Source: Lytechinus pictus
Taxonomy: Eukaryota
Direction: 5' to 3'
NCBI RefSeq assembly: GCF_037042905.1
Contig: NC_087250.1
Span: forward strand, 8,806,001 to 8,870,000
Length of the DNA stretch: 64,000 nt
A model generated the notes under the pieces. It ran no database searches. It saw nothing but the letters and a program-made list of their open reading frames with translations, and was not told the DNA's origin. A program made the translations under genes and the position numbers. Shown piece by piece: positions 8,367-61,859 of the stretch; positions within the stretch are counted from its first letter, which is position 1; the number at the start of each line of letters is the position of its first letter.

Positions 8367-9959
8367 TTATTTCCATGGGGTCCAATATCCCATTTCGGTG
8401 TAATCTTGATTTACGGTAAGGTTGTTCAAGGGTGTTCTGCAAGACGTGAACCAGACGGAGTCCCGAAGGTACTTAATATCGCCCTCCTCTCGAGGATGAA
8501 TATGAGGGATTGTCCTACACAGATCTCCTGGACGCAAGGGGTAGGTGTTGACTACCTCACCCCGACGTCTCCAGTCGTGGAATTTCCTGTACAAGGTCTC
8601 GTCACGGTCAACTTTCTGGAGGAACTCCGCAAGGCCCTTGACGTCCTCAAAATCACCAATATGGACAAAGGAATTTGGTGGTGCCACCTGCTCGTAATCC
8701 TTCTTCGGGGCACCTAGGACCAGTGGCACTGCACCGTACAGGAGAGATATCATCCAGAACTTTTCGGTGATGTAGTCGCGGCATTCAGAGTTGGGAATGG
8801 CCAGGAAGAACTTGTAACTGGCGAAGAGCCTGTTGCATGCTTCCGACCTCCTCGGGAGGCACTGCTTGTGTCCACACGCGCCGTAATCATCCAGGGGTAT
8901 TTCTTCGAGGATTTTCTGGATGAAGGGCACCCTCGGCCAATACACTTCTTTACAGTTGGTTGCCACCCAGGAAAGAAGTCCTGTCCTGTTCCCAAAGAAG
9001 GCATCAGACATGACCGTGTCATCCGTCGTGGCAGTGGTGTTGTCAAACTCTCTGTAGTACCCAAATGGAATAGGAATATCGGCTTCTCTGTTGTAGGTCA
9101 TCAGAATGTGGTATTTTAAAGAAGCAATGTCAAAAGGCTGAGCCCAACGAGACGCTCTGTAAGGAGACTCCGTACTGAAGTAGATCCAAGTTTGTGAAGG
9201 ATCAGGAGTTATATCTGAAATCATATGAAGCATGTCATGTCCTTTCCATATTGTAGGGACCATCCCAAAGATCACAGCATCTTTTCCTCTTATTGAGTGT
9301 AGCCTATCCCCGAGGGTAAGGACTATATCACAATCATAACCTTCGGCCACGCAGTCGATGTCAGACTCGTAATCAGTCTTGGAGCTCGTTTGTAGAAATC
9401 TTCGAAAGTGGTTCATTTCTGGAAACGTCAACGTGTGTTCCATACCCGAAAATATATGAACTCTCTTGATACATTTCGGCGTCTCCTCCGCCTCCAGTTC
9501 TGTATCATTGTCCATTTCCTCTTTCCCATCAACTGATGGGGCGCCCTCTTCAGGTACCCTACAGCTTGAAGCCATTTCTTTATCAGCTAAAAATAATTGA
9601 TGACATGTTGTGTTATCTCGGATATAATCAAAGTAAGGCCCTTGCAATAGCGTTTTCCTTTGTGGATGTCTGTTAGCATGGTAGTGTCCATCGATGTATA
9701 GGCCCTGCAAGGAGTCATACTGTTTGGTAACTTCGTAAATATGGATGAAACCTCCAGAAGACAGTCTTTGCGAATCAGGCTCAATCAAATCTCTACGGTA
9801 AATGAAGTCTTGTTCCAAGATAGACTCATTACCTTGATGAACTCGGCATCCGATCTTCTCTTCAAATGGCTTGGTGATATCGGAAGGGAACGTCTGTGTA
9901 ACATTTAGTCCGACATGAAACATGATGCCAGAAAGGACGGCCACAACCAGCTTAGTCAC
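8367..9959 (-). CDS. GT10-family alpha-1,3/1,4-fucosyltransferase-like protein, main coding exon
   Basis: 530-codon open frame with the alpha-1,3-FucT motif YKFFLAIPNSECRDYITEKFW, plus WIYFSTESP, MTYNREADIPIPFG, WVATNC, DDYGACG, GAVPLVLG and APPNSFVHIGDF. Starts directly after a polypyrimidine+AG acceptor (minus strand ttttccttctctattag|GTG), so the GTG is not the true start. N-terminal hydrophobic anchor LVVAVLSGIMFHVGL. Confidence 0.93.
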   Translation of the reverse strand: MTKLVVAVLSGIMFHVGLNVTQTFPSDITKPFEEKIGCRVHQGNESILEQDFIYRRDLIEPDSQRLSSGGFIHIYEVTKQYDSLQGLYIDGHYHANRHPQRKTLLQGPYFDYIRDNTTCHQLFLADKEMASSCRVPEEGAPSVDGKEEMDNDTELEAEETPKCIKRVHIFSGMEHTLTFPEMNHFRRFLQTSSKTDYESDIDCVAEGYDCDIVLTLGDRLHSIRGKDAVIFGMVPTIWKGHDMLHMISDITPDPSQTWIYFSTESPYRASRWAQPFDIASLKYHILMTYNREADIPIPFGYYREFDNTTATTDDTVMSDAFFGNRTGLLSWVATNCKEVYWPRVPFIQKILEEIPLDDYGACGHKQCLPRRSEACNRLFASYKFFLAIPNSECRDYITEKFWMISLLYGAVPLVLGAPKKDYEQVAPPNSFVHIGDFEDVKGLAEFLQKVDRDETLYRKFHDWRRRGEVVNTYPLRPGDLCRTIPHIHPREEGDIKYLRDSVWFTSCRTPLNNLTVNQDYTEMGYWTPWK

Positions 9960-31600: not shown

Positions 31601-34600
31601 TCTAATAATTAGAAAGTAGATCGAACAGACAGCTGCTCCACTAAACTTTGTTTAAAAGTCAAATTAATTTGACTGCCATTACTTTTATTACGGTTAGGTC
31701 TACATGAATACACAATGTAATCACATTGATCTATGTTTCATATTGTGACTTAAAAGTGATTTAAAAAAAAACCCAGCAGAGTCTCGCGGGCCGGATTGAG
31801 AAGCTTCGCGGGCCGGATCCGGCCCGCGGGCCGTAGTTTGAGAACCCCTGATCTAGGGTACGTGTTTCATGAACTGTTCTCCCAGTGGGCCCTGCATAAC
31901 ATACTTATGCCACTGAGCCATGGTCATTAAATTATTAGGCAATAAATGATTAGGCTATTAAGGAAAGTGGTTGCAGCAAACAAAGATTCCACGAAAAGTC
32001 TTTATAAATCACGGTTAATCGTCACATCTTTGATGATCAACATCTACCTGTGGTTTCTTTACCTAAATCCTACTCTGTGAAATAGAATACAAAGGATTTG
32101 GTCTCTCAAAATATTCTCAAGAATATTCTAATACTTATAACGATCTTGATAATTGTTATGGCGCATTACTATGCCTTTGATTTTTCTGAAGATGTGAACA
32201 ATGTTTACTTCCTTATCTTAATATGCTATGGGGCATAATTTAAGTTTTATTTTGAATTATTACTATAAGGCCTTGTTTCTGTTACTATATGAACACTTTA
32301 TTTCGAGCCATGTTTTACTTCATACAGTATCTTAAATATCTGCTAGGGTATTTAAACATCTTCAAATATCCTTTGTTTATGCTTAGTTTTTACTATGTAT
32401 TCTTTTCTGCTAATGTATATTTATATGCAAATGTAACACTATATTGTTGTCAAAATGAATATTATTTTACATGGTGAGAGTGAATAAAACAAAATCATAA
32501 AAATTATAAGCTAAAAAAAAAAAATCATACTGATGATTGCCAACGCAGATAAGCACATCTGGGCTAATGTATCATCATTGCTAAGAAAAAAAGACCCAAA
32601 ATGAAACCACTGATCTGAAACAACTGGATAGAGCGACAAAGCACTCTACCCAGGGGTCAGCGGAAACACTTGAACCTATCTAAACTGGGCTATTTCGGAC
32701 CAGAATAACTTGGGGGGGTCTATTTGAGCCCCCCCCCCCTCAGATCTCGGCCTCTGATTGCGCGATTGCCGCGAAAATTAGCATGCAAGTAGAGCAGGAT
32801 GTAAACTACAAGAGTATGGTAAAATTTTCAAAAAAATAATTGCTTATATTCTCTATTATTAATTATGCAAATAAGCGTATGAAATTTGCCCTAAGTATGT
32901 TTTTTGTGTATGTTTTTGCCTTTAACTCAATTTATATAGCTAGAAGAATGCTAATTTTTGGTGGGAGTATCAATTATTACATTTCTAACCAACATCTACA
33001 AAAAAATTGCAAAAATATAAATAATTTCTTATGTATTTTATTGTTTTTTTAATTCTTATGTATTTTTTTGTTTTTATCAAACCTTTTTTTAAATTGTTTT
33101 TTCCGATGCACTTTGTTGGGGACCCTTTTGTGATCATAAATAGCATAAAATAAATCCATTTAAGGACGTTCCACAGTTAAAGTGAAATCCATGTCATTTT
33201 CACCAAACTTTGCACATAGATACTTTAGAACCTTAATATTCGAAATATGCAAAAATTAACATAGGTCCATGTGCTTGATTTTTTGCTATAGAGCTTCAAA
33301 GTTCACCCAAATTGATGTTCTTAAGAATTGCGCATTCAAAAGAATTTGGCATTTTTATACCGCCCAAGATTACTACAATGAGTTTAAACCTCCATTACTC
33401 ATTCAAAATACATGAAAAAGTCATCAAATTTCGCAAGAGAGTTAATAATTGTATCGTTAGAATGGAGAATCTATTAATAGTGCTATTTGTTTGCAATTTT
33501 AAGTTTAACAGCATTGTCAGTTCTTAAAAATGGCGTAAAAGATAACAAAATCCCAATCTAAAAAATGTAAAATTTCAGTAACAAACTACAAACGTACAAT
33601 AAATGCTGCACTTTATTCAAAATCCATGTCATTTTCACCAAAATTTGCAGAGTTGTAGAGGAAGGTATACCTAAGAGGTACAAACATAAAAAAATAGGGG
33701 TTCATGTGCTTGTTTTTAAACTATCAGCATTTTTATTAGAGCAAATGTGCTTTTTAAAACACCAAAAATGGGCCGAATGATTAGTATCTATGTGAAGAAA
33801 AAATCAAAACCACTTTACCATTTATTCAAACTCGGGCTAATATTCGTGATTCTTGGCAGCACTGCAGAGTAAAGTATTTTGAAATTGTAGAGAATATTTT
33901 TTTGAATGGTCCATGGAATAATTCAATTTTTTAGCTTCATGAAATAACGCATCGGATCTGCAGTTAAAGTGCAGAAGATGAGAAAAATCAGCTCATACCC
34001 GCAGCTAATTAATCACCTGTTCATCCATTGTGACGTCAGCGCGCAGAGTGTAAACTATGCGCAGATCATAATGCGCACAAATATAACTGTGGAACGTCCT
34101 TAAACCAACAAAAAGTAAAAATATTCATAAATTTATGATTTTTGGTTAAAAAACACAATTTGCATTGACTTTGTACACGGAATCATGTTTTTGAGCAATT
34201 TCGGGTCTGACATGCACTTTCAAAATGTTGCGTAATTTCAGAACCGCTTACCCAGGCGTCACAAATTTGGTCTCAAATGATGCGCAAGGCTTGAAAGTAA
34301 AAAGTCAGTGAGCGGCGCGGTCAAAAAATTTAGCGCGGCCGCATAGTGACAAAATTGGTTGAGGGGGGGTCAAAGTGACCCCCCACCCCCTGTTTAAGGG
34401 CTAAAGCATACTCCAAAATGTTGAGCGCGCACAAAGTTCCACACCTTTTTTCTCCTGCCAGTGCATACATGTATGTGCGTGTTGTTTCTAATGTGTTAGT
34501 ATGGCCCCATATACTACTAGTTATGTTATGGAGTACTCTTCCTGTATCTTCAAGGTCGAGGCAACATACAACAAGCTCTATCCAGTTTTTTTTTATATCA

Positions 34601-46600: not shown

Positions 46601-49600
46601 AAATAAATATTATAAGATACCAGTTATCCAAAAAACAGGAAAAGAGAATAAAAAATAAAAGAAAATATAAAAGATAAAATAAATGAAAAAAAAAACAGCC
46701 TTCGACGTGATAAAAGATCCCGGGGAGGGGAGCACTTACATTGACGAGTGGATACCATGCGCGACCCCAAAAACATGTAAAATTATGTCTTTTTCAAGAT
46801 AGGGCATGTTACGTACGTAACATAATAAGGGTGTCAAAAACACTAAACAAATTTTGAAAAGGTATCTATTTTGCTAGGATGCTATGTGTTAAGGGTAAAA
46901 TTTGCGAGGGTATACATGTAAAAAAGACTAAAATGTTTTATAAAGGATGTCCTTTTTGCCCCAACTACGTGTTTAGAGTCCGATTTGCGCGAGGTGTGGA
47001 AGGTGGGCTGTACTAAACCCAATTATGAATAAAGGTGAAGCTGACGACCGACCGGCCCGCGACATAACAATTAAAATATCGCTGTACTTGTTTAGTGGTT
47101 CAATTCAGGGAATACTTGCAAAGGGTATAGTTTTGTTTCAAATACTTGTGAAGGGTAGGGTTTCACACGCCATACTTGTTAAGGGTTGCATTTTCAGAAT
47201 ATGGAAAATTCTTGTTTAGGGTGCTTTTCGAGACCCCATGGTCGCGCATGGTATCCACTCGTCAATGGAAGTGCCCCCCCCCCCCCCCCCCGGTAAAAGA
47301 TACATAATTTTCATCGTACTTGTGAAAGCTGCTGTCTCCTCCTTTGAAAAGGAATGAGTTGTTCCGGCAGCGCTTACTTCTGATGTTCCCTTCTCTGCCT
47401 GGATGCCTACCCTGGCTTTCACTTGAGTGAGGAACCTTGATGACACCTTGTTTTTCTTGATGTCATCGTATAGCTGTTAATAAAGATATGAGATTGAGTG
47501 AATTGAAATATTAGTAATTCACATCTTCAAACTTGTGAAAAAGAATTTTCCAGCTCTGGCTGTTTTTTCGGTGAAACTACATTTGCTCCTGGTTCAGAAA
47601 TTACACTTGTTCATGTACATGTACATGTAGTAGTGTCAAAATTGCTCAAAAATATGATTCCATGTACATGTACAAATCCAATGCAAATTTTATTTCTAGT
47701 CTACATGTACAGTACATGTACATTCCTGTATCATTGTCTTTCCTTTTACTGATTAGAATCAATTGTTAAATTCCATGTTGTTTATAAAGGACAAGTCCAC
47801 CCCAAAAAAAAATTGATGTGAATAAAAAGAGAAAAATCCAACAACCATAACACTGAAAATTTCATCAAAATCTGATGTAAAATAAGAAAGTTATGACATT
47901 TTAAAGTTTCGCTTAATTTCACAAAACAGTTATATGCACATCCTGGCTGGTATGCAAATGAGGAGACTATGACGTCATCCACTCACTATTTCTTTTGTAT
48001 TTTTTTATATGAAATATGAAATATTCTAATTTTCTTCTCATTGTCAAAAATTTCAAGTGATACAACGATTAATTCCTCCCTGAACATGTGGAATGAGCAT
48101 TGTTTAATACTATATGGTTCTGTCAAGTTGGTCCTTATTGTCAAATCTATAAAAAATGAAATATTATTATTAAAATTATTATGAAATTAAAACAATAAAA
48201 AACCAAAGAAATAGTGAGTGATGGACATCATCGACTGACACACCTAGTTGTGCATATCACTGTTTTGTGAAAAATAAGCGAAACATTAAAATGTCATAAC
48301 TTTCTTGTTTTACATCCGATTTTGATGAAATTTTCAGCACTATGCTAGTTTGATTTTTGTCTATTTATTCAAGTCAGCATATTCCTGGGGTGGACTTGAC
48401 CTTTAATGAACATAAAAACAAAAATGTACATGTAGTAAGTACTATATAAAAGAAATAGATAAATAAAAACGAATATATAAAATATGTATAAAGAAAACAT
48501 GAATTTTTACTGATTATTTTTTTTATGTGCATTTGATCAGATTCCCACAGTCTCTATCAAAAAAAAAAATTGCACTTCATGGTCTTCAAATTGTAGATTT
48601 ACAGTCAAATTTTAATTTCATGCATAAATTTGCACTATTAATTCAAAATATATACATGCATGAATAATTTATAATGAACAATCCAAAAATAGGAGTTTGC
48701 AGATTGAGTCATGGGCGATGGGCTTGTCGATTTCTACGGTAATTGTACAAAACGGCTGGGGTCATTAAAGGAGAATGAAACCTTTGGAACAAGATACATG
48801 TAGCTTGTGTGAAAACAGAAAAAATCAAAAGAAGCAGATCAACAAAAGTTTGAGAAAAATCAGATTAAAAAAAAGATAAAGTTATGAGCATTTGAATATT
48901 GCGATTACGAATCCTATAGAGATCCTCACATTGGCAATGCGAAAAAGATGTGTGATGTCACTTGTGAACAACTCTCCCCATTAGCTTTAAAGTACAATGT
49001 ATATATTTCACTCAAACTGCCTCTTTTATCACATCCAACTGTATCAGTAGATCACATGTTCTTTCTACAGGAGGGCATGTAATACAATTTTTTTTTAAAT
49101 ACACAATGGATAAAGAATTTTATCACCACACAAAAAGCAAAAAGAGACATTTTGAGGGTATTTTAAAGGGAAAGTTGTTCACATATACATCACACATCTA
49201 TGTTGCATTGCCAATGGGAGGATCTCCATGGCATTTAATAGTGATTTCAATATTCAAATGCTCATAACTTTCTCATTATTTGTCCGATTTTTCTCAAACT
49301 TTCTTTGTTCTTATTCTTTGATTTTTCTGTTTTGACACTAGCCTACTTGTTCCAACAGTTTCATTCCCCTTTAAGGGGCGTGCCAGTCTATCCAGCGTCC
49401 AAAGGTACAGTACATGTACCCCCCCCCAAAAAAAAAGGAATGAATGTCATACCTTCATAAACTCATTAAAAGTGAGGCGCCCATTATTGTCGGTGTCATA
49501 CTCTCTGATGAAGTCCCGGCATTTGTAGGCAGGAACGCTCTCACCCTTGGCCTGGAGGATCTCCTGGATTTCTTTGTCCGTCAGAAAGCCGTCCTTGTTC

Positions 49601-52600
49601 AAGTCCATCTGAAAACAATGATTGAATTGAATTGATTTCAGCATATTTACTTTTGTTTATTAATCATCATTATTATCATTATCATCATTAATATTACTAT
49701 TGTTATTCATTCCGCATTCCATTAAAAACAAGTGCTAGAGAATATTGACAATAATAAATTACTGTAGAATATGACAGATTTTTTTTTTTAAGTGCTAGCA
49801 TCGCAATTAGCCGGCTAAGCCTGCTTTTTAGCAGGGCCGGATATTACCGTAGTATTTACATGTACGGTGCTAGATCACTTTGGTCAAACGTAGTGTAAAA
49901 CCGAAGTGGGCTTAACCCCAGGAAATAGGTGGGGCTATGGGGGGGTTAAGGAAAATTTGTGCAGTGTGAAAAGCATACCATGAGCAGAATGACTGCACAG
50001 GAGGCCCCTAGAATTATGTTGTGTGTGTGTGTGTACTGTTTGTTTGTTTGTATGGTTTTTTTTTTGGGGGGGGGGCAATAAAAGACAGCAAAAGTCTTTT
50101 TTTATGTTTTTTATTTATTTTGGGGGACCAGTAAATGTTAGGTTCAGATGAGTACAAAATGGAAAATCTGGGTATCTACTGGTCCAACATGAACAGGTTG
50201 GACCAGTAGAAAAAAAGTTAGAGTGGAGCCTTGTAAAACACTCAATAACTGAGTCTGAAATATAGACTAAAAACTGAATGGTTTTGTTTACCATCCAAGG
50301 ATAGGGCTCAATGATTATTTACATTTACTTCCTGGTGTAATGATATACAGTAGGAATAAGGGTGATCAAATTCCACAATTGCCCAGTTGGGTACTTTAAT
50401 AAACCGCTGGCAATGCACAAACCACTCCCTGTGACAGTGATACAGCACGAAAATGAACGGATCTACACAGTATGGTCTGAGGTTTAATACTACGTATGAA
50501 TTCTTATACTTTTTCTTTTCATTATGTTCCTATTTTTTTCTTCTGATTACTCATCTATTTCATCTATTTTTTTCTCTCTCCCTAACCACTACTCCATCCT
50601 CCTCTTCTTCTTCTGCTTTTCCTTCTTCTCCTCCTTTTTCTTCTTTTTCTCCTCCTTCTCCTCTTTCTTCTTGAATCATCTCATTCTTCTTCTCCTTCCT
50701 CCTCCTCCTCCTCCTTCGTCTTCTTCTTTTTCTTCTTCTTCTTATTCTTCTAGTTCTTCTTCTAGTTCTTCTTCTTCTTCTTCTCCTCCTCCTTCTCCTT
50801 CTTCACCTTTTCTCCTTCTCATTCTTCTTTTTCATTACATGTACATACATGTATCATATGTTTTTGTGAGGCAATGATGCAAATAATGGTTTGTTTCACT
50901 AAATTGTGTACAGGGCCTACAAGCTCCATTTGAAATAGTTTGTTTTCTTTATTTTTCACCATTTTATTTCCTTGTTTTTAATATGGCATGTACCTTTTTT
51001 TTAAATTGGCATGGACGCCCAGTGGACAGACTACTACAAGCCTTTCAAGAGATGACTTATTTTGGATTTTAAACCATCTTTCCAAGCCCTATGCTATGTA
51101 CGCCTACATGATGTACATTTAATACATGTTCTTGTAAATGTTGAAATGTCAAATAATCTAGGGGCCAACCCCACATGTTTGTTTTACAAAGCAAATACAG
51201 AATCGGATTCTCTAGTCTCTAGATCTCATGCCAAAAAACTGTTCCTTTTGAGTCTTTGCAATAATACATTTTACTTCCCTAAAATAAATAAAGCCAAATT
51301 GCAGCATCGTTTGTACATGTACATGTGTGATGTACATGTACATACATGTAAATGTTCATGTAGGTCTTCGTATGACTGAAGATTTACAACAAACCATTGT
51401 TTTATCAAAGTAAACAGTGTATGATTTCTATTTCAAGCGAACTACTTTTACCAACCAAAGAGTGAACTGAACTGCCAGGGAGCTGGTAGAACTACACGTA
51501 TTTCAAAATTTGATAGGCCTTTAATACAGCGTAGAGTTCAATATGATTAATAGCATATTGTAATAGGGTTTTTGGTTCCGAATGATGTGTACACATGTAT
51601 GGAAAAGGGGTTACATGTAGGTTTGGAGCGTGGGTTTATGTTTGACTTTTTCGAGTGGCTTTTCCATATTAAAGGACAATTCCAACCCAACAAAAAGTGG
51701 ATTTGAATAAAAAGAGAAAAATTCAACAAATATACATGTAATTCACTGAAAATTTCATCAAAATCAGATGTAAAATAATAAAGTTTTGACATTTTAAAGT
51801 TTTGCTTAATTTCACAAAACAGTTATATGCACATCCTGTTGGGTATGCAAATGAGGGGACTGATGACGTCATCCACTCACTATTTCTTTTGTATCTTATT
51901 ATATAGAATAGGGAATATCCTATTTTTCTCCTCCTTGTCAAGTGAAACAACGATTAATTCCTCCCTGAACATGTGGAATGAACATTGTTTAATACTATAT
52001 GATTCAGTCAAGTTGGTCCTTATTGTCAAATCTATAAAAAAAATGAAATATTGTATAGTTGAAACTATAAAACACAAAAGAAATAGTGAGTGAGGGACAT
52101 CATCGACTGTCTCATTTGAGTTGTCTTTATCACTGTTTTGTGAAAAATACGCAAAACTTTAAAATGTCATAACTTTCTTATTTTACATCCGATTTTGATG
52201 AAATTTTCAGCATTTTGCTAGTTTGATTTTTGTCTATTTATTCACATCACCATTTTTTTGGGGTGGACTTAACCTTTAAAAAGCAATTGTTATCACAGGA
52301 AAGTCGGTCATGGAGCCGACCCAAGAACCACTTTATAGATTAACGTTTGAATCAGGGTCTGTGCCTGCAGACTAGCATCATACTTTACCATGATGCAGGC
52401 AAAAACAATATTTTATTTTATTTTTATAGGGTGCTATTAATACAAGTATATGCTTCATGTGTACCTTTTAAACTTTAACATTGTAGTGAATGGGAATTTC
52501 AGGGTTTTTTTTTAATTATCCAGGGCTCTTTTGGGCATTTCGGGAGGGAAATGTTTTCCCTGTTGTGATCCCGGGGGGGGGGGGGGGGGGGGGGGGGACC

Positions 52601-55600
52601 GGTCAAATATATCGCTGTACACACGCGTGACCAAGGAATTTCCAAACACCCCCTAAACGAGTTTTTCTCTGTGTGCAGAATACCCCCCTAAACAAGTTTT
52701 TCTCTGGCTTTATTTACACATTTTGGCCCCTAAACAAGTTGTTGCCAAAATATGACCACGGGGGAAAAAGCTAGGGGAAAAAACCATAGTATACCCTAAA
52801 CACGTTTGGCTAGTCTTAAAAAAAAAAGCTTTGGGAAAAAAAAACATACCCTAAATACGTTTGACCCCGCGATTGACCATTGACCAGTCTTTCAAAACCA
52901 CCCTTTTTCTTGAAAATCAGTGTTTTTGATACCCTTAACGAGTCCACGCGCGGACCGCGTCCAAAACTGAAAAAAACACCCCTTTAAATGCGTTTATTGG
53001 TCACGCTTGCGTACAGCAATATATTTGACTGCCCCCCCCCCCCCCGGGTTGTGATGTCACTAGGCATACATACATGTATATTCAGACCAACTCGATGTTC
53101 AAGATTTTGAGGAACATTTGATAAAATCTGATACTCTGATCTACAGTGTATACTTTTACATGTCCCCCCCCCCCCCCCCCCGTTCAGAAAAAAAACCAGG
53201 TATTTTTGTCAGTGTATTGAATTTAAGCAAATAATGTACAATGTACATTCCCCAAAGAAAGTACATGTATATGTACATAATGTACAGGTCCAAATTGTCA
53301 AAATCACAGAACTTCCCCATTATCCGGGGGGAGTATCCTCGCAGTTTTGTGTTGTGCAAACTGGTATTAAAATCTACTTTAAGGCGTCTGAATGCACACT
53401 GCACAGGCTACGTTGACTTGCGTAAGTACTACAGGCCCTCCGGAAATTGAAACGGCAAGTTTCATACATCTACAGAACATGTATGCGAGTGTCTTCTGTG
53501 AAGACTCACTTGTTGATCAAAGTTTCAATCAGGGTCTGGGCCTGCAGACCAGTTTGAAAGCATTACAAACATGTGCAAGAACTTTTCTTTGGACCTGTGA
53601 GAACATGGCCCTGTCTTACAAAGAGTTTGATTGATCTGATCAACCTCAAGTGTCTGGAAATGGTAAATTGCCAACTCTCCACTCGTCACAAAATGCCATT
53701 CCATCCATCAACATTTCGTCTAACAACCATCTGGGGCCTGTTGCATAAAACCTTTTACCTGAGAAAACTCTGGTAAAAACTGAAAACTATAAAGGTTAGT
53801 CTGATTTCTGCCATTGACTTTAACACAGGGCAAAAACTCAACGGTAAAAAACAACCTGAGTTTTCTCAGGTAAAAAGTTTTATGCAACGGGCAGCTGGTC
53901 CAATCATCACTTCGTCTCATTACCTTTCGTCTATGACCATTTCGTCTCATAACCAGTTGGTCTAATATCCATTTCATTTTCATTCATTATGCACAAAACA
54001 CTTTAATAATAGTCCAAATAGACCAAATGGTATGGCTATTTTACCAACTGGTTATGAGACAGCATGGCATTAGACTATAAATGAAAGTACATTATACATG
54101 TAGACAGGGTGCTACATAACTTTTTAGAAGCACTTGCCCAGTTGGGCAAGTAAATTTTTGAATAGTTGTAATATACTTGCCCGAAAATCTATTTCACTTG
54201 TCCGAAAAAAAATCTTGAAAAAAAGTTTTACCTCTTAAAAAGAAAGTATATATGTATTGTGGTTTTATAAACCATTGACCTTTTTCTCTCTTTTGACGTG
54301 AACTGATCTACCTTGTTATTGCATTTCTTTTTCCAAAGTGATTTTATCTTGCCTGCGATGACCAAAATTAGGGCTAATATCATATCATATCAACCCTAAT
54401 TTTTCTCATTTAACTTTGAGAATTTTGCTTGCCCAATTTCGGCAAGTAGTTTTGGTCTTTACTTCAAAACACTTGCCCGACTGTAACTTTTACTTGCCCC
54501 GGGCAATCGGGCAAGTGCTTATGTAGCACCCTGCATGTAGACCATGTGGAAATTCTCAAAAACTACATAACAGTTACAGGTACTTTGGTGATCAAGCCAA
54601 TTTGAAACTTTCAAATTAACTTGAAAACAACTCCTGTGTCTCAATCCAGTTTGGCCTAGTACAAATCTGCATGCATCTATAAATGTCAGTGTCTGTCTCA
54701 TCCCTGAAGGCTATTCCATGGCCATGACTCATGCGTCAAGACATTAGCCGTTTATAGGTCAGTCTCTGATTCACAAAATCAAAGGGGCCGTTTCATGAAG
54801 CTCTTTGTCAAGTGACACACAACTTTCGTTTGGCATATGACTGAAGACTAGTCTGTAAGCACAGACCCACGCTTGCCACTAATAACCAATTATACCATGT
54901 CTAGAGTGAAAAATAGACACCAAATTCTCTGTCTGTATTTTTGTCATTTTAACCAATAAGCATGTCTAGAGCAAAGACTCGACGCCAAACTCAAATTTGT
55001 CATTTTAACCAATTACAACATGTCTAGAGTGTAGACTACAGGTACATGTACAAATGTGCAATTTATACATTTTATAGCTCTCTGTGACAGGCAGCCACAG
55101 CACTTATAGTGAATCTGGTCTCACTACTTCAGACTCTGAATTATGCACTATGCAAATTCCAAAAAACTAAAAGACCTGCCCCCCCCCCCCCGTTTCATAA
55201 AGAGTTATAACTGTTGTAACTTTGCCATTATGGCAACTACCATGGCAACATGGCTCAGCAGCCAATCAAAATCAAGGTTGCCATGGTAGTTGCCATAATG
55301 GCAAAGCTACAACAATTGCAACTCTTTATGAAACGATCCCCTGTTCTTGTGCACTTCGAATTATTAGCTTGCCCATATTTTTTCCAGATGGGATTTTTTT
55401 TTTGTGGGGGCTACATGTAGATAGTAAACAGTGGTTCGTGAATTTCAAGGTAAAATTTCCCTTGGAGGAAGAGGACAAGGAGGTCTTTGAAATTGAAAGA
55501 CTGAGGAGTACAGTATTCAAAGACCAGATGCTCTGCCTGAATGCAAACAAAGAAACAAAGAGTGAAAGGAAAATGAGATCTCCAGAAAATGGAGGGTTCT

Positions 55601-57704
55601 GAAAAAAGACCCAACTTTTTCCATGGACCTACTACATGTACGTATTGTAGGTACATGGTTTTTCTCATCCCCTTTTTTTTCATACTTTGAGAAGGAAATG
55701 TGGCAAATCAATCATCAAGCTACAATACATGTCTAACCAATTAGGCCTACATGTACATGTATGTACTGTCTGAAGATTTCTTTGTGGAGCCTGTACCTTC
55801 AAAATAATATTTTTCACATTATACAGTTTTCAAAGAGGTCAAGTAGAACTAAAAAAGAAACAAAGTCTGTTCTTGATCAAATAAATTGACCCCCCCCCCC
55901 CCAGATGTTGGCCTACATGTAAGTAAACATCTGAGTTTATTCAAATTCCTTTTTGGGCATTATCTGGCTTGCATTATAGACTTTCAGATATATTTGTATT
56001 GGCTTGGTAAAGTAAATAAAGTAATCTGAAACTCTGAATAAACTAAAAGTAAAACACAAATACAAAAAACATTGCCTAGCCAAGTAAATTGCTATTCACA
56101 TCAATCAGTGCTCTAATAAAACCTGCTGATCCGGACAAGTCTCGGGCCAAGTCATAAAATTTTGAGTTTATTTTATTTATGGTGCAAGCTACATGTATTT
56201 CAAGAACGGGCTATTTTGATGTTACTTTTATGAGCATCAGGCCAGCCCCAGGCCCACATTTTTTAATGGGTGATCATAAAAGTAGCGCCAGCTCTGCTAA
56301 AGGTACCGAACGCAATGTTTTGGACTATTATTGGCACGGGCCTGGCGCGGCGCAAAAAATAAATTTTGGTATAGAATACCAGCCCTGCAATACAGACTAT
56401 TCTCCATGTACAGGTGGCTAGCAAGCAAGAATATACATGTGTAGGTAACCAGATATAGTCATATGAGTCATCCACAGCTGGGAATTTCATTAAAGGTCAT
56501 TTTTTTTGCTCTCAACTCAAGGGTTAAAGTAAACACAGAAAAACCAACTGTGTTTTCAATCTAGACTGGCCAACATTTCTGAGTTATTAAAAAAAATATC
56601 AAAAACTATTTCAATCTGTCCTTTATGGCGACCGTATGTACCTCGAGCTGTTTCATGAAAAAAATTAAAGAAATGACACTATTCATGAATTTTCATGAAG
56701 AAATTAAAGAAATGACATTATTACCCCCCCCCCCATAGGCATTATGTACTATGGGCTTGTTTCGGTGAAGAAACTAAAATAATTACCCCCCCCCCCTTGT
56801 CCCCTGTGTAAATCCTGTTTATAAAAAGATAAAAACGTGTAAATTTATGAAAAAGTGTGTTGTCTTTGGATGATTAAATTTACTGCATGTGCTGTGTTGA
56901 TGCAAATGTGCTGTACATGTACATATACTGGGACGCTTGTCTGAGTCAGCATTGCTCATTGTGTGTGTGCAACCACTGGAAGGTCATGCAAATAAGGTCA
57001 ACTTTTTTGTGACTTCTGATAAAAATAGGAACCATTACTGTTCGAAGTTATTGTTTACCTTGGCGGAACAATTGAATGATATCAGGATTTCATGTACATG
57101 TAACCAACACCAAATTTAAAGATAAATATTTTACATACAATACTATGCTTTTCACACTGCACTTTTTTTCCTTAACCCCAGGGTTAAACTATTAAAGCCC
57201 ACTTCGTTTTCACACTACGTTTAGCAAAGTGGGCTAGCATGGTAAATACACTGTAGTACGGTAGTATCTGCCCCAGCAAAAAAGCACGGCTAGCCGGCTT
57301 ATTGTGGTGCTAGCACCACAAATTGCAGTGCTTAGAGATGCAACGTGAAACGAAACATGGCTATTAAAGGAAAAGCGGGGCTAAGCATTAGCCAATCACA
57401 GAAGTCAAAATTGCTCGTTAATCGCGCTCTGTACGGTAAAATCATCAATATTCATGAGCTGTGCGATAGTCCGGGGTTAAGGCGTTAACCCCGGCTATTA
57501 AAGCAAATAGTATGGGGTTAAGAAAGACAGTGTGAATCGAAAAAGAGTATGGGGTTAGGAATAGTCTGGGTTATGGGATTAAGGAAATTAAGTGTGAAAA
57601 GCACATAAGAGTGCTTGATATCACAGGGGAAAGTCTCTATTTATTCTCTTCAGAGCTAAACTTACCTTATCAAAGTATTCCCTGATTTCATCCATCTCAT
57701 CCAT
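22495..57704 (-). CDS. PLS: Plastin/fimbrin (actin-bundling protein), 14 coding exons, 618 aa, whole-gene span
   Basis: Exons 57666-57704, 49453-49608, 47320-47473, 45918-46029, 44469-44676, 39016-39160, 36381-36505, 34624-34698, 30623-30749, 29928-30016, 28985-29174, 27613-27722, 25640-25792, 22495-22668 join in frame with GT-AG boundaries (1857 nt). Two EF-hands followed by four calponin-homology domains with plastin signatures ([107 protein letters not shown]). Confidence 0.96.
22705..23097. mobile_element. TTAA-flanked repeat family member
   Basis: TTAA|AG...CT|TTAA; homologous segments at ~42025-42425, ~35580-35670, ~31960-32040 and ~36280-36380. Confidence 0.65.
23154..23744. mobile_element. 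TTAA-flanked MITE (Kolobok-like)
   Basis: TTAA|AGGGGTACTCCGG...CTGGAGCATTCCT|TTAA; internal similarity to the other TTAA families. Confidence 0.7.
25640..25792 (-). CDS. PLS: Plastin coding exon 13 ([16 protein letters not shown]...LDLVDAIKP...), CH4
   Basis: ctggttag|CTC...GAG|gtaaga; 153 nt. Confidence 0.95.
27613..27722 (-). CDS. PLS: Plastin coding exon 12 ([11 protein letters not shown]...EIVSWANTK)
   Basis: tgtccag|CT...AAG|gtaaat; 110 nt. Confidence 0.95.
27826..28755. repeat. Intronic minisatellite, ~91-bp unit, ~10 copies
   Basis: aactgttccaaaggtaccttgtgtgtgttaat... at 28127, 28218, 28309, 28398 and others. Confidence 0.9.
28985..29174 (-). CDS. PLS: Plastin coding exon 11 (LFDIVNPG...[10 protein letters not shown]...GTVNLTL), CH3
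   Basis: aattag|CTG...CTT G|gtaagg; 190 nt. Confidence 0.96.
29180..29892. repeat. (AAT)/(CAT)n compound microsatellite
   Basis: Directly visible trinucleotide repeat. Confidence 0.95.
29928..30016 (-). CDS. PLS: Plastin coding exon 10 ([29 protein letters not shown]), CH3
   Basis: aattag|CA...GAG|gtcagt; 89 nt. Confidence 0.95.
30623..30749 (-). CDS. PLS: Plastin coding exon 9 ([19 protein letters not shown]...EETREEK)
   Basis: ttttgtag|GAT...AAG A|gtaagt; 127 nt. Confidence 0.95.
30789..31850. mobile_element. Non-autonomous hAT-type element
   Basis: TIR CAGGGGTTCTCAAACT...AGTTTGAGAACCCCTG; 8-bp TSD ATCTAGGG; nested small element at 31331-31495. Confidence 0.85.
33164..34099. mobile_element. 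Non-autonomous element with TTAA TSD (Kolobok-like), nested in another repeat
   Basis: TTAA|GGACGTTCCACAGTTA...TAACTGTGGAACGTCC|TTAA. The host repeat spans ~32670-34404 and resumes after the insertion. Confidence 0.8.
34624..34698 (-). CDS. PLS: Plastin coding exon 8 ([25 protein letters not shown])
   Basis: ctattag|AGT...AAG|gtaggt; 75 nt, phase 0/0; matches the plastin RAE.ML..A..L.CR.FV motif. Confidence 0.92.
34820..34947 (-). mobile_element. 3' fragment of a SINE-like element with (TAA)n tail
   Basis: (tta)n tail on the plus strand followed by a SINE-like body; overlaps in sequence with a decayed tRNA-like head at ~46065-46152 (tacccacatt). Confidence 0.45.
34948..35328 (+). mobile_element. 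Repeat with two ~190-bp internal units and a 3' hairpin (Helitron/Helentron-like non-autonomous element)
   Basis: Unit tgaccctaaatgacctttgacc... occurs at 34948 and 35139; terminal stem-loop gtctcgc...gcgagac followed by an A run. Classification is an inference. Confidence 0.5.
36381..36505 (-). CDS. PLS: Plastin coding exon 7 ([28 protein letters not shown]...), CH2
   Basis: ttacag|GA...TCG|gtatgt; 125 nt. Confidence 0.92.
37638..38971. repeat. Tandem duplication of ~665 bp
   Basis: 37638-38301 is collinear with 38302-38971; identical ORF translations at 37992-38174 and 38662-38844. Confidence 0.92.
39016..39160 (-). CDS. PLS: Plastin coding exon 6 (IGLFANIDL...[18 protein letters not shown])
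   Basis: cacag|ATT...GAC G|gtgagg; 145 nt. Confidence 0.95.
39975..40450. mobile_element. MITE with ~21-bp TIRs flanked by TA
   Basis: TA|GGTGGTTTCAAACCGCCTCGA...TCGAGGCGGTCTGAAACCACC|TA; internal repeats tttgctttcagaccgccaaaatacc. Confidence 0.8.
42463..42642. mobile_element. 180-bp non-autonomous element with TAG...CTA ends and 9-bp TSD (Academ-like)
   Basis: Termini TAGTCTGC...GCAGACTA; TSD GTGCAACTG at 42454-42462 and 42643-42651. Related inverted copy at ~53400-53551 and related termini at ~52353-52374 and ~54850. Confidence 0.75.
44140..44353 (-). mobile_element. tRNA-derived SINE
   Basis: Minus strand head GGAGGCGCGATAGCTCAGTCGGTAGAGCG...GGGTTCGATTCCC has Pol III A and B boxes, followed by a non-tRNA body; no complete cloverleaf or terminator. 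The 3' end is approximate. Confidence 0.8.
44469..44676 (-). CDS. PLS: Plastin coding exon 5 ([14 protein letters not shown]...LGLVWQIIR), CH1
   Basis: ttaatag|C AAA...CGG|gtaggt; 208 nt. Confidence 0.96.
45918..46029 (-). CDS. PLS: Plastin coding exon 4 (YINEGL...[12 protein letters not shown]), CH1
   Basis: tttaaag|GA...TG|gtaagt; 112 nt; phases match both neighbours; absent from the ORF track. Confidence 0.93.
46719..47293. mobile_element. Poly-G/poly-C-ended element with 8-bp TSD
   Basis: CCCGGGG...CCCCGG ends; subterminal inverted repeat cattgacgagtggataccatgcgcgacc; TSD TAAAAGAT. Confidence 0.8.
47320..47473 (-). CDS. PLS: Plastin coding exon 3 (LYDDIKK...[23 protein letters not shown])
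   Basis: taacag|CTA...ACA A|gtacga; 154 nt; plastin headpiece-ABD1 linker motif GT.HS.S.EE..AF. Confidence 0.93.
47788..48402. mobile_element. MITE of the AGGACAAGTCCACCCC family (TTAA-type, Kolobok-like)
   Basis: Long imperfect terminal inverted repeats. Other copies at 51673-52275 (full) and ~25125-25568, ~16300-16535, ~57840-58520 (partial). Confidence 0.8.
48769..49370. mobile_element. TTAA-flanked MITE (Kolobok-like)
   Basis: TTAA|AGGAGAATGAAAC...GTTTCATTCCCCT|TTAA with long inverted arms. Confidence 0.75.
49453..49608 (-). CDS. PLS: Plastin coding exon 2 (EF-hand loops [12 protein letters not shown] and [12 protein letters not shown])
   Basis: ttttcag|ATG...AAG|gtatga; 52 codons; two canonical EF-hand loops. 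Confidence 0.95.
50595..50830. repeat. (CTT/CCT)n microsatellite
   Basis: Directly visible. Confidence 0.9.
51673..52275. mobile_element. MITE, same family as 47788-48402
   Basis: TTAA|AGGACAATTCCAACCC...GGGTGGACTTAACCT|TTAA; collinear with the other copy. Confidence 0.8.
52570..53047. mobile_element. Poly-G/poly-C-ended element with 8-bp TSD
   Basis: CCCGG(G)n...(C)nGG; subterminal inverted repeat gtcaaatatat.gctgtac; TSD GTTGTGAT. Confidence 0.8.
54105..54533. mobile_element. Non-autonomous hAT-type element
   Basis: TIR CAGGGTGCTACATAA...TTATGTAGCACCCTG; 8-bp TSD CATGTAGA; repeated subterminal CTTGCCC/GGGCAAG motifs. Confidence 0.85.
57147..57602. mobile_element. MITE with GCTTTTCACAC TIRs
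   Basis: gcttttcacact...agtgtgaaaagc; inverted partial copy at ~49790-49975. Confidence 0.7.
57666..57704 (-). CDS. PLS: Plastin coding exon 1 ([13 protein letters not shown])
   Basis: ATG...AAG|gtaag, phase 0; encodes the entering helix of EF-hand 1. Putative acceptor (atcatttgcag) near 57832 implies a further upstream non-coding exon. Confidence 0.85.
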
Positions 57705-58119
57705 TCTGTTGGTTTATTTCCTATCTACTGTAGCTATGAAGAGGCGTACTGTATCGGTTTACTTCCGTCAATTCTCGATGTGAAAGATCTTATGACCAGC
57801 TCTGCATGAAAATGTACATGCCACTCAGAAGCTGCAAATGATGATAAAAAGGAGAATGATGGACTAATTTCAAGCATAATGCTAGAATTTCATCAAAATC
57901 TTATTGTAAAATAAGAAAGTTTTGCATATTTTTTTCACAAAACAGTATGCAAATCTCATGCAAAGGAGAGTTAGCGATTTCCCTTAGGCCTACTCAATAT
58001 TTTTTTTTAATTATTTAAATTCAACATTTGAATTTACACAGATTTGACAATAATGACCAACTTGACTGAACCACAAAATGCTCAAACAATGGACATTCCA
58101 CATGTTCAGGGAGTAATTA

Positions 58120-58463
58120 TAGGGAAGAAATAATAAAGATAAACTTATGTCAACTACATTCAGCTAAACCACCATTCCAAAAAATAGTGAATTTTGATGA
58201 CAAACAGATCGGGATCAGCCAGGCCAGGTTCTTCATCCATCGCCGTCAGCTACAGCTGAGCGTACGGACGCGCCAGCGGATTGGCTGGCACGTTCGTATG
58301 CCCGGCTGTAGCTGTGCTTACGGGGATCGAACTTGAAGAAGATTCTGATCTGTTAGACTTAGTTAGTGTTAGTGTTTGTCATCAAAATTCGCTATTTTTA
58401 GGAAAGGTGGTAATAAAGCTGAATGTATTTTAATAAAAATCTATCTTTACTATTTCTTCCCTA
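58120..58463. mobile_element. Inverted-repeat element inserted in a decayed TTAA-family MITE
   Basis: tagggaagaaata...aattttgatgacaaaca pairs with tgtttgtcatcaaaatt...tatttcttcccta. The flanks (ggacattccacatgttcagggagtaat and its inverse) match the 47788-48402 family. Confidence 0.6.
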
Positions 58464-58667
58464 TTAGTATTACTCCCTGAACATGTGGAATGTCCATTGT
58501 TAATAACATTTTGTGGTTCATTCAAAACAAAAAAATATGAAAAGCTTTGCCTAGGCTTTCTTTCTTCTCATCTCATTTCTTTCTTCTCATCTCAGCCGGC
58601 CTCAGGCTCAGCCTGCGCTTCAGCGCAGGCCAGCGCCGGGCAGTGGGCGCAGCTCACTCGCAGTTAA

Positions 58668-59186
58668 CCCAGAGAGCTCCCGCCCGCGCAGCGGGCGGGA
58701 GCCCAGAAGCTTACCGTGTATTTTACCATTGTCACCGGACTAGTGTGATTTATGGTCTAAATATTTCTCAAAATGAATTGTGAAAACAGAAAGTATACAA
58801 TTACCACGATTATATGGATGAAGGTCTAACGAGTGGCAGTTTCCTGACATCTGGGCACAGACTGGAACCTCAAATAAACGAAAAGTTCTCTCCTCTACCC
58901 CAGTCTCGATCGGCCATTTTGTTACGATTTTTAACAAAAATGGCCGATCGAAACGGGGGTAGGAGAGAACTTTTCGTTTTTTGAGGTTCCAGTCTGTGCC
59001 CAGATGTCAGGAAACTGCCACTCGTTAGACCTTCATCCATATAATCGTGGTAATTGTATACTTTCTGTTTTCACAATTCATTTTGAGAAATATTTAGACC
59101 ATAAATCACCCTAGTCCGGTGACAATGGTAAAATACACGGTAAGCTTCTGGGCTCCCGCCCGCTGCGCGGGCGGGAGCTCTCTGGG
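58668..59186. mobile_element. Fully palindromic 519-bp MITE with TTAA flanks and CCC...GGG termini (piggyBac-type signature)
   Basis: TTAA|CCCAGAGAGC...GCTCTCTGGG|TTAA; ~255-bp near-identical inverted arms around a ~7-nt spacer (58925-58931). Confidence 0.85.
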
Positions 59187-59295
59187 TTAACTCGCAGTGA
59201 GACATGAGTTGACTAGCTAGTGAGTAGTGGGCGTGCCCGCAGACACAGCTGGCTTCGGCCCGCGCTCCGGGCAGCGTGGGCAGTCGGTCACGGAT

Positions 59296-60232
59296 TAGCC
59301 TCTTGTCGAGGCCCTGTCGGCTGCTTTCCGAGCGAACATGGCAAAGCACGGGAGAGAGCGAAGCAGAGCGAAGCAGAGCGCCGCGAGACAGGGCCTCTGG
59401 ACATCTGTACCGAATTTCACCGACTTTCTTTTGTTTTTTATTGTTTTTACCAATTCACCGACCAAAAACTGGTCGGTGAAAATCATCCAATGAGAGCGCG
59501 AGCTGCTATGACGTCATATTAAATATTCATGAGCTCATCTTGAATGGCGACCCTTGGATTCTTGGCGAAGAGTGACGACGAAATATCAAAGAGCACTGAA
59601 TATGCCTCTAAAATGCTGAATATTGACCGATTTAAGGATTTGCAAGTCGATGAAATTAACTCTGCACTGAAAGGACGAGATGTCTTTGTAAATCTACCCA
59701 CAGGATATGGAAAAAAAAGTAATATTTCATGCGATTCCACCGGTCGATCCGGGGCGTCGATTATCGATCTCCGCTTTGCAGTGCAGTGAGGGAAGCTGGA
59801 GTGGAGTTGCTGGGAGTTGACTCGAGTCTGACCAGCGGCTGAGCAGTATCTCCCGGGAAGTTTCGGGGCGGTGATGGGTCTGTTACGGCCAGTAGTAATA
59901 GTAGTAGTAGTAGTAGTACCACTACTTGTAGCATTTTGCTGGTTATATCCCCTTTAGTGTCCCGCAATTAAATGAATCCCCTGCAGAATAGTGTACTACT
60001 ATATAGAGTATTCCGAACCCAAGACGAAACAGCTCTGACATTTCATTGGTTTACTCGGTGACCGGTAATATCATGACTCATGTATATTCATTAGGAAGAC
60101 GTTCCTCATGAATATATAATTCAGTTCAGATGTCAAGAGGCCCTGGCTCGCGCCAGGCCTAATTCGCTTCGCGAATTAGGAAAGCCCTCGCTTCACTCGG
60201 GAAGCAGCTGCCAGGGCCTCGACAAGAGGCTA
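59296..60232 (+). mobile_element. Non-autonomous AcademH-like DNA transposon (937 bp) with a RecQ-type helicase fragment
   Basis: Perfect 21-bp TIR TAGCCTCTTGTCGAGGCCCTG, extending imperfectly to ~41 bp; 9-bp TSD GTCACGGAT at 59287-59295 and 60233-60241; internal SF2 helicase motif I remnant. Confidence 0.85.
59544..59750 (+). pseudogene. Truncated, frameshifted RecQ-like SF2 helicase N-terminus inside the transposon
   Basis: FKDLQVDEINSALKGRDVFVNLPTGYGK (Q-motif region plus Walker A). After the A8 run at 59711-59718 a shifted frame continues VIFHAIP; the rest of the domain is missing. Confidence 0.8.
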
Positions 60233-61859
60233 GTCACGGATAGGTGGCTCGCTTGAGCCGTGGGCTTCGCTTCAGCAAGAAAAAGACACCTCAAAATCCC
60301 AGGGTAAGATCTACATTGTCATCAAAGATATCACCTACGAATAATACCTGTAGCTTGGATGTTACTTTTCCTCGAGTTGGTAAGTGAATAAATCCTGATA
60401 AAAACCACAATGAGCCAAAATATCTGTTTACTTTCACAAAGAAACCATTCCTCTCACACACGACACACACACGATCCAGCGAAAATATCAAGTTCACCCA
60501 CTGACTGAATTAAACTATTTCACCGACCACCTGTGGATGTTCCGCATTGCCAATTTAACATTACGACAAAAAAACGTATAAGTTTCGACAAAAGAAAACA
60601 AATAAAAACTTATATTGCTACGTTTACAAAATCTATACAAAAACTTAAAATGCATATATAATTATTATATAAATTACAATAAAATAGTAACATTATATTT
60701 GTTTACATCAAATAAATATGATAATCGTTATATATGCTAGCAAACAAATTGGATTTTATAAATAGTCCGCTTACATTAGTCCCAGAAGAGGAGGAAGTTG
60801 GAGAGAGAGAGTGGAGAGATAGAATAGTTCACCAAATAAGGAAGTCAAGATAAGTTGTGCCAGTGCCAACGTACCCGGAAGCTGCGGAAACACAAGTGGG
60901 AGGGGGGCTGTAGATCCCACCACCCCCCTCCTCTATCAGCCCGCTACCCCTGATAAAAAAATATTTTAAAAAAATAAACACTTTTCAGAGACAATGGCCA
61001 ATTTTCAGTCATTATGCCCCCACATAGCACTAGACGGATCCAGCAGCGGTAGCGTTTTTTTTCTTCTTCGTCGATCTTTTCTTACTATTGGGCAACAAAA
61101 AGTGGGGGGTCACAGGCATATTTAGTATTCTTTTTTTAGTACTTATTTTTCAGTTTTAGAAAATTACTAAGGGCATGCGCAAGTATATAGGGAGGGCAAC
61201 ACTATGACTGTGGGGCAAATTCGCCCCCCCCCCCTTCCTCCTCAATTGCTCGGGCCTTGTGAAGATCCAAAACGGTGGCGGAATGACCCAAATATTTTGA
61301 GGAGGCACAATATGAAGGAGGCCTATTTGTGGGGGGATTCCTGAAAGTAGATGGTGATCGAGACAAGCGAGAACGGTCGGCCTTTTAAAACTTAAAACCT
61401 TATATATATTTTGTGATATTCAACAAAATTATCATTTTCTTTTCATTTCCTTTTCTTTTTCTCAATCCTCTACTGTTGTTGTTGCTATTTTGGGGGGAGG
61501 GGCTATAGAGCCACCCAAGACTCGTCTATTTCACAAGAGGGCCATTATGATTCTGATGGCCCCTCATTGTATTTATTTATTTATTTATCTATTTATTTAT
61601 TTATTTACTCATTTATCTATTTATTTATTTGTTTGTTTGTTTCTTCTATTATTATTATTTTGCGATAGGGAAAACTGGGTGGTGGGATATTACATAATTC
61701 AGGAGGAAAAAACGAATTTCAGGGATAACACAAGAGTGAAATTTTAAACCAAAGTAAAGTCTGGGAAAACAAAACTGCGGATAATTATGTGAATATCGGC
61801 CCCTCAAGCATCAGTCGCAGTGTTAAACTTTTTTTTGACCAGCAACTGACGCATGGAAA

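What the first reader, a model, noticed from the sequence alone, without database searches (positions are those of the whole stretch)
59287..60241. AcademH-like transposon derivative carrying a RecQ-type helicase fragment, upstream of the plastin start codon
Seen: perfect 21-bp TIRs starting TAG, an exact 9-bp TSD (GTCACGGAT), a second inner inverted pair (cagggcctctggacatctg ~59389 / cagatgtcaagaggccctg ~60127), small hairpins (~59452-59482, ~60159-60179), and an ATG-initiated fragment ...LQ..I...LKGRDVFVNLPTGYGK that frameshifts at an A8 run into VIFHAIP. Established: AcademH transposons have TAG termini, 9-10-bp TSDs and encode a RecQ-related SF2 helicase. Inference: this is an internal-deletion derivative of an AcademH family. 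The intact TIRs and TSD suggest recent movement, so an autonomous transposase-helicase partner may exist in this genome.
Basis: partly seen in the sequence, partly recalled or inferred. Interest (0 to 1): 0.75.

Follow-up and report, generated by a model that had tools for sequence, protein, structure and literature searches.

The report
Gutted helicase-carrying transposon in plastin intron
A 937-base jumping-gene remnant that keeps only its two ends and the broken start of a DNA-unwinding gene sits in the first intron of an animal's plastin gene; it is a clean but ordinary copy of a known, little-studied transposon type (AcademH).

Summary
Confirmed. A 937-bp element (59296-60232) has TAG ends, a perfect 21-bp TIR (37/41 over 41 bp) and an exact 9-bp target duplication; 0 of 20 shuffles give such a pair. 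It holds a frameshifted 5' stub of a RecQ-like helicase, motif 0/I to Ia. The stub groups with helicases of TAG-ended, 9-bp-TSD elements and away from WRN, BLM, RECQ5 and Sgs1 (SH-aLRT 97-99); two of those elements (4.2 and 5.3 kb) also carry a converging DUF6589 transposase. Sequencing contigs show a multi-copy family whose other copies end exactly at 60232. So: a non-autonomous, internally deleted AcademH-type element moved in trans.

Corrections: it lies in plastin intron 1, not just upstream of the gene; the 'inner pair' is one inverted copy of the TIR core at each end, shared by 20 of 33 relatives' ends; this copy carries at least 11 private substitutions. No autonomous partner could be sought, because no genome is held. 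The scan found such elements before, in fungi and elsewhere in this genome. One lead: a near-identical copy in a third organism hints at horizontal transfer.

The parts
59287..59295 (.). left 9-bp target site duplication
   Evidence: exact copy at 60233-60241; only two occurrences in the window
59296..59336 (+). left end, outer TIR block; starts TAG; 21 bp perfect, 37/41 against the right end; core motif at 59308-59318
   Evidence: an X1 contig begins exactly at 59296
59355..59374 (+). tandem 10-bp duplication, probably private to this copy
   Evidence: family D20; X1 record 3 and X12 record 12 each lack 10 letters over this stretch; that these are the duplicated letters is inferred
59382..59416 (+). 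left end, inner block, holding an inverted copy of the TIR core (59387-59397)
59454..59480 (.). hairpin, 11-bp stem, 5-nt loop
59487..59516 (+). CCAAT and TGACGTCA motifs upstream of the helicase ATG; possible helicase promoter (inferred)
   Evidence: a TGACGT motif also lies upstream of the helicase in L094 and L103, but not in L104, L108, L109 or L113
59544..59740 (+). 5' stub of a RecQ-like SF2 helicase (Q motif, Walker A), frameshifted at 59711-59719
   Evidence: Pfam DEAD E 0.0024, below cut-off; BLM E 7e-5; 73% identical to P0003
59930..59962 (+). motif Ia remnant (SILLVISPLVS) in another frame, after a low-complexity insert that relatives also have
   Evidence: 11.2 bits against the family HMM
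60118..60152 (-). right end, inner block, holding an inverted copy of the TIR core (60137-60147)
60158..60180 (.). hairpin, 10-bp stem, inside the right-end spacer
60192..60232 (-). right end, outer TIR block; starts TAG read inward
   Evidence: three contigs (X1 records 7 and 8, X12 record 16) end their match exactly at 60232 and go on with other DNA
60233..60241 (.). right 9-bp target site duplication
   Evidence: a single-copy-depth contig of organism B begins its match exactly at 60233
57832..60347 (-). plastin intron 1 (5' UTR intron), the host site
   Evidence: joint 57831-60348 with CT..AC ends in X1; GT donor and AG acceptor
60348..60444 (-). plastin non-coding exon 1 (at least this far)
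   Evidence: X1 record 2; stranded X21 reads
57666..57831 (-). plastin exon 2 with the start codon at 57704 ([13 protein letters not shown])
   Evidence: downstream EF-hand and CH exons

Best explanation
This is a non-autonomous member of an AcademH-type cut-and-paste DNA transposon family. The parent had a RecQ-like helicase gene starting about 250 bp inside the left end and pointing inward, and a transposase gene coming from the right end (shown for relatives, inferred for this family). An internal deletion removed most of the helicase and all of the transposase; the 0.94-kb remnant then multiplied as a family (shown). Each ~120-bp end carries two copies of the core motif facing each other, most likely transposase-binding sites (inferred). 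A transposase supplied in trans excised a copy and inserted it through a 9-bp staggered cut (TSD shown) into the CpG-rich start of plastin intron 1, after the split from organism B (inferred). The helicase stub is a frameshifted passenger with no protein function. The role of the full helicase in giving 9-10-bp duplications is a published suggestion and was not tested here.
For: TIR and TSD beyond chance. Family HMM from 5 named echinoderm and hemichordate proteins scores the stub 56 bits, a host-RecQ HMM 31. Trees: stub inside the family clade, SH-aLRT 99 and 97 together with helicases from three TAG/9-bp-TSD elements. L103 (5311 bp) and L094 (4166 bp) have exact 9-bp TSDs, 39- and 54-bp TIRs starting TAGCCT, helicase plus converging DUF6589 protein. 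L106 (606 bp, exact TSD) is a parallel deletion derivative. Walker A lies at +399 here and at +267 to +387 in 7 of 7 relatives examined. Multi-copy family, ends fixed at 59296 and 60232, probable empty site in organism B. AcademH = helicase plus 9-10-bp TSD (PMC10045372, passage).
Against: No full-length element with these exact TIRs was seen: no genome is held, and TIR scans gave one chance hit in metagenomes and none in viral contigs. The TSDs of other copies were not visible. The stub fills only 32% of the tree columns; both trees are quick searches with SH-aLRT support only, and the element helicases are its cousins (43-51% identity, no higher by BLAST than some prokaryotic or viral RecQs), not its nearest relatives. 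The family set was picked by similarity to P0003. That DUF6589 is the Academ transposase, and that AcademH ends start TAG, are recalled; the defining paper was not held. Of four further short relatives, none had an exact TSD (one 8/9).
Confidence: 0.88

Rival explanations
1. Pack-MULE-like element: a Mutator-type transposon (9-bp TSD, long TIRs; recalled) that captured a piece of a host or transposon helicase gene as cargo.
For: 9-bp TSD and ~120-bp imperfect TIRs fit MULEs as well; no transposase is left in the element to classify it.
Against: The end sequence is in register with those of helicase + DUF6589 elements (TAG-YCT...CSAGRC at positions 12-17). The stub has the same place and direction as their own helicase gene, and it is not a host RecQ.
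Confidence: 0.05
2. Nested or composite element: an inner transposon bounded by the CAGGGCC... inverted pair (hAT-like start; recalled) inserted into a 160-180-bp TAG-ended MITE.
For: Short forms lacking the inner part exist: joints 59390-60145 (X21, X1, X9) and 59370-60149 (X9); the first cuts almost symmetrically in the inner pair.
Against: No duplication flanks the inner pair, and the inverted match runs on beyond CAGGG. The inner motif is an inverted copy of the outer core, and each end's two copies share that end's variant base. The same layout recurs at 20 of 33 ends of longer relatives. The short forms are at only 1-2 times single-copy depth in X9, as expected of further deletions.
Confidence: 0.04
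3. The stub or the element is functional: a truncated helicase peptide regulates transposition, or the insertion acts as a plastin regulatory element.
For: Six short derivatives (this one and L104, L106, L108, L109, L113) keep the helicase 5' part. The site is in a CpG-rich region 106 bp from the exon-1 donor. RNA reads cover the family on both strands.
Against: The relatives were found by a Walker-A pattern, so keeping that part is built into the search. The stub is split over three frames. The RNA reads cannot be assigned to this copy, and plus-strand RNA over the unique DNA next to it is near zero (0.11 at 60232-60415; that animal may lack the insertion).
Confidence: 0.03

Closest known systems
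AcademH lineage of the Academ superfamily (Kojima 2020, Mob DNA 11:15; not held, seen only through citing passages in PMC10045372 and PMC10799480, plus recall)
   Same: RecQ-like helicase gene; 9-bp TSD; animal host; TIR-bounded DNA transposon; in relatives a separate converging transposase gene.
   Different: This copy is non-autonomous (937 bp against a mean of 5565 bp for curated bivalve Academ elements, PMC10294476 passage), with no transposase and only a frameshifted helicase stub. The inverted two-site layout of each end was not found described in the listings and passages seen, but the defining paper could not be read.
AcademX (nuclease-bearing Academ lineage; PMC10045372, passage)
   Same: Same superfamily.
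   Different: 3-4-bp TSD and a nuclease instead of a helicase; not met here.
KolobokH (PMC9587614, passages)
   Same: DNA transposon encoding a RecQ helicase.
   Different: [quoted passage not shown] Kolobok TSDs are short (3-5 bp for KolobokP in that paper), not 9 bp.
Host RecQ helicases (WRN, BLM, RECQ5, Sgs1, bacterial RecQ)
   Same: SF2 motifs; BLM is the best PDB hit of the stub (E 7e-5).
   Different: Separate clade. The family proteins start 20-30 residues before the Q motif, carry an insert between motifs I and Ia, and P0074 shows no RQC or HRDC domain, whereas most of the long host proteins have RQC.

Membership tests
AcademH | 9- or 10-bp target site duplication | tested here: met
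   exact 9 bp; criterion from PMC10045372 passage; TSDs of other copies of this family were not visible
AcademH | RecQ-like SF2 helicase of the element-borne lineage | tested here: met
   stub groups with helicases of three TAG/9-bp-TSD elements, apart from host RecQs; no Repbase reference sequence was available
   TAG ends and core motif in register with L094, L103, L106 and others
AcademH | Academ-type DDE transposase in autonomous members | tested here: inconclusive
   absent from the element and the window; present as DUF6589 in relatives L094, L101 and L103; equating DUF6589 with the Academ transposase is recalled (one paper listing holds the term, not read)
AcademH | autonomous element sharing these TIRs in the same genome | not testable with these tools
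   no genome held; TIR scans of metagenome and viral contigs found no true copy
AcademX | 3-4-bp TSD and nuclease | tested here: not met
   9-bp TSD and helicase stub
KolobokH | [quoted passage not shown] | tested here: not met
   9-bp TSD; in relatives the helicase is a separate converging gene
MULE / Pack-MULE | 9-11-bp TSD with MULE-type TIRs and captured host gene fragments (recalled) | tested here: not met
   TSD length fits, but the ends match helicase + DUF6589 elements and the fragment is not from a host RecQ
Host RecQ pseudogene | orthology to WRN, BLM, RECQ1/4/5 | tested here: not met
   RECQ1 and a named RECQ4 were not in the trees (RECQ1 PDB hit E 3e-4)

The most novel reading that the evidence does not exclude
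This AcademH family crossed between species recently and may still be active. A third organism (C) holds about two copies with no private substitution over 577 nt, although its run shows none of the unique DNA around the site. Each AcademH end is a self-contained module of two facing transposase sites, the same unit as the 47-112-bp mini-elements with 9-bp TSDs, with spacing loosely tied to the helical repeat. If so, this element and its missing partner would be a ready substrate for reconstituting Academ transposition and testing why it needs a helicase.
Probability: 0.2. Interest if true: 0.55.

Novelty: new member of a known kind. Interest (0 to 1): 0.27.

Why it matters
A gutted AcademH copy is ordinary in itself. 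Its value is practical. Academ is little studied, and I know of no biochemical test of it (recall; my searches were not aimed at this). This copy defines the cis sequences a family kept while multiplying: two ~120-bp ends, each with a pair of facing core motifs. It is also a dated insertion 106 bp from the first splice donor of a cytoskeletal gene, 97 bp from a second 9-bp-TSD element, so it is a usable marker for target preference and for allele-specific effects. It also shows that proteins annotated as 'WRN homolog' or 'RecQ-like' in Lytechinus and Ptychodera belong to the element-borne helicase clade.

Tried and rejected
Genome-wide TIR search: impossible, no genome held. TIR 20-mer in metagenome contigs: 1 hit, a GC-rich bacterial-looking contig with no other similarity, rejected as chance. 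TIR 18-mer in viral contigs: 0. P0003 in viral contigs: 0. The family alignment in viral contigs gave 79 loci at 25-32% identity, taken as ordinary RecQs; 3 went into the tree and fell outside the family, the rest were not examined. Two searches among long proteins (1020-2910 aa) found host RecQs and no transposase-helicase fusion; one search was meant to cover 160+ aa but the tool set that range, so it did not test for a close full-length partner. No RNA holder was listed on record. Rfam over 57500-61000: 0. The careful tree did not finish; quick trees were used; P0031 and P0180 were dropped from the second. Helical periodicity of the spans is weak (Rayleigh p about 0.01, 20 non-independent values). 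The left-end fold is not unusual in energy (z -1.3); the right-end fold is (z -4.8). ATG at about 58240 (MDEEPG...) was rejected as the plastin start; it lies inside another foldback repeat. Kojima 2020 and its supplements could not be read; they may already describe this family or the end layout.

Full report
Observation. The 9-mer GTCACGGAT occurs only twice in the 64 kb, at 59287-59295 and 60233-60241. It brackets a 937-bp element that starts TAG at both ends, with a perfect 21-bp TIR extending to 37/41. A scan of the window for a perfect 10-bp inverted repeat flanked by an exact 9-bp direct repeat gives two hits, this element and a neighbour, and none in 20 shuffles. The inner pair (59382-59416 / 60118-60152, 89%) and both hairpins are real. 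There is no second copy of the element in the window.

The peptide. The frame from 59544 gives the Q motif and Walker A of a RecQ-like helicase and continues one base on as VIFHAIP. It scores weakly against Pfam DEAD (E 0.0024, below cut-off) and against BLM in the PDB (E 7e-5). Its best relative, P0003, is 73% identical. The alignment of 18 sequences shows a family that begins 20-30 residues before the Q motif and has a low-complexity insert before motif Ia. The element keeps that insert and a motif-Ia remnant at 59930-59962 in another frame, so the stub runs about 420 bp over three frames and then stops. Of 10 relatives looked up, the clusters with names were 'RecQ-like' or 'WRN homolog' proteins of Ptychodera and Lytechinus. 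An HMM from five such named proteins scores the stub 56 bits, one built from the host and bacterial RecQ set 31 bits. In a 53-row tree the stub lies inside the family clade, separated from WRN, BLM, RECQ5, Sgs1 and bacterial RecQ with SH-aLRT 99; one of the 25 'family' rows fell with the fungal host proteins.

Link to whole elements. A scan of GTDB genomes with the family alignment returned 34 loci. I examined 20; 16 had 36-48% GC and look like animal DNA carried in bins (inferred from GC, introns and repeats). Three contain an element spanning the helicase with TAG ends and an exact 9-bp TSD: L103 (5311 bp, TIR 39), L094 (4166 bp, TIR 54) and L106 (606 bp, TIR 28). L103 and L094 carry, on the other strand and converging, a DUF6589 protein with DDE-like motifs, with an N-terminal zf-AD in L103; L101 has the same two genes but no ends were found. 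That DUF6589 is the Academ transposase is my recall. Four more short TAG-ended stubs (496-901 bp) had imperfect or no TSD. Walker A lies at +267 to +387 in these seven and at +399 in the window's element. In a 59-row tree of the N-terminal region the stub and the three element helicases fall on one side of a branch with SH-aLRT 97. This tree is a quick search, the stub fills 32% of its columns, and the element helicases are only 43-51% identical to it. AcademH is defined in a citing passage by a helicase and 9-10-bp TSDs, against a nuclease and 3-4 bp for AcademX (PMC10045372, passages). The defining paper was not held.

The family and the site. Four runs were laid on 56000-61500 (tables truncated by the tool). 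An organism-A contig matches 57666-57831 without a difference and is spliced to 60348 across CT..AC ends, so the element is in plastin intron 1, 106 bp from the donor, with its helicase stub antisense to plastin. The raw-read run showed no read for that joint. Three contigs end their match exactly at 60232 and continue with other DNA, and one begins exactly at 59296. In organism B, whose unique DNA here is about 8-10% different, summed contig depth over the element is 2200-8600 against about 36 for unique contigs; this is a rough sign of many copies, not a count. A contig of B at single-copy depth matches 60233-60445, beginning at the first base of the TSD, and has at least 260 further letters on that side that do not match the element end. 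That is what an empty site gives, but the joint to the left flank is not among the rows shown. At 11 listed positions most X21 reads and the X9 and X12 contigs share a letter that differs from the window, and two contigs lack 10 letters in the left spacer. So this copy is at least 1.2% from the family majority: young, not brand new. One of these positions is the last A of the 'A8' run. Whether the family as a whole is in frame there is not shown. Shorter forms joining the two ends (59390-60145, 59370-60149) also exist.

The ends. The core GAGGCCCTG occurs four times in the window, all in this element. The left end's two copies share one following base and the right end's two share another, so each end is a local inverted pair: 0 and 1 of 500 shuffles match this. 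Across 16 loci and the window, 44 TAG-type ends were found; 26 have an inverted copy of their own core (at most 1 mismatch in 9) within 130 nt, against a shuffled mean of 0.5 and a maximum of 3. Eleven of the 44 belong to mini-elements under 130 bp, where the copy is simply the other end (6 of the 26). That leaves 20 of 33, two of them from this element, and not all independent. An earlier scan note reported long and short ends one helical turn apart for Academ-type elements in this genome (e1-7787493); for this motif I did not see that.

How it works. Shown: ends, TSD, decayed stub, multi-copy family, relatives with both genes. Inferred: origin by internal deletion, mobilisation in trans by a DUF6589-type DDE transposase binding the paired cores, a 9-bp staggered target cut, and insertion after the split from organism B. 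Established for DDE transposons in general (recalled): cut-and-paste with gap repair giving the duplication. No transposase remnant is in the element or the window, and the partner could not be sought.

The transfer lead. In organism C a 577-nt contig differs from the window at 7 sites, all of which are also seen in organism A. Depths (21.5, splitting into 11.4 and 10.1; one right end with its own flank at 12.2) suggest about two copies. The same run gives almost no depth on unique DNA, including both plastin exons. Transfer is one reading. But the tool drops human-like records without notice, C also holds pieces of other repeats from this stretch at 96-99%, and contamination or a close relationship is not excluded.

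Literature seen: passages of PMC10045372, PMC9587614, PMC10799480, PMC10294476, PMC5751038 and PMC9004415; no 'Academ' passage in PMC9148063 or PMC12730594; otherwise search listings only.

Verdict. A real, well-formed non-autonomous AcademH-type element; a new member of a known kind; interest 0.27.

Noticed in passing
window 58665-59189 (TSD 58656-58664 / 59190-59198): A second element 97 bp away in the same intron: a 525-bp near-perfect foldback with TAA ends, an exact 9-bp TSD that is almost palindromic, and a local inverted pair at positions 12-38 like the AcademH ends. A TTAA/piggyBac reading also fits the letters, but an X12 contig ends at 59189, one base short of what TTAA would give. 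Parts reach about 120,000 summed depth in X9.
   Followed up: partly
L094 9356-14060 and 9858-14023: One TAG/9-bp-TSD element has inserted into the inner inverted motif of another's end; its TSD is that motif. Possible targeting of related ends.
   Followed up: partly
L112 16391-16437, 17127-17165, 17201-17310; L113 16204-16315; L114 13168-13222: Mini-elements of 39-112 bp with TAG ends on both sides, the first two with exact 9-bp TSDs; same geometry as one end module of the long elements.
   Followed up: partly
window 30789-31850 and 54105-54533: Two CAGGG-ended elements with exact 8-bp TSDs, hAT-like (label recalled).
   Followed up: no
window 8370-9959, minus strand: Single 530-codon frame encoding a family-10 fucosyltransferase (Pfam E 1e-43), downstream of plastin on the same strand.
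   Followed up: partly
window 60232-60415: In total-RNA run X21 the mean minus-strand depth (13.7) exceeds what exon 1 alone (depth 11-12 over 68 nt) explains, so RNA continues past the donor towards the insertion site: nascent RNA or a longer first exon.
   Followed up: no
L094-L114: Many contigs of GTDB bins carry intron-containing, animal-like DNA with these transposons: probable host contamination in species-representative genomes.
   Followed up: no
window 58062-58525, 47785-48406, 51670-52279, 25122-25572: An abundant foldback repeat family with several copies in the plastin introns.
   Followed up: no
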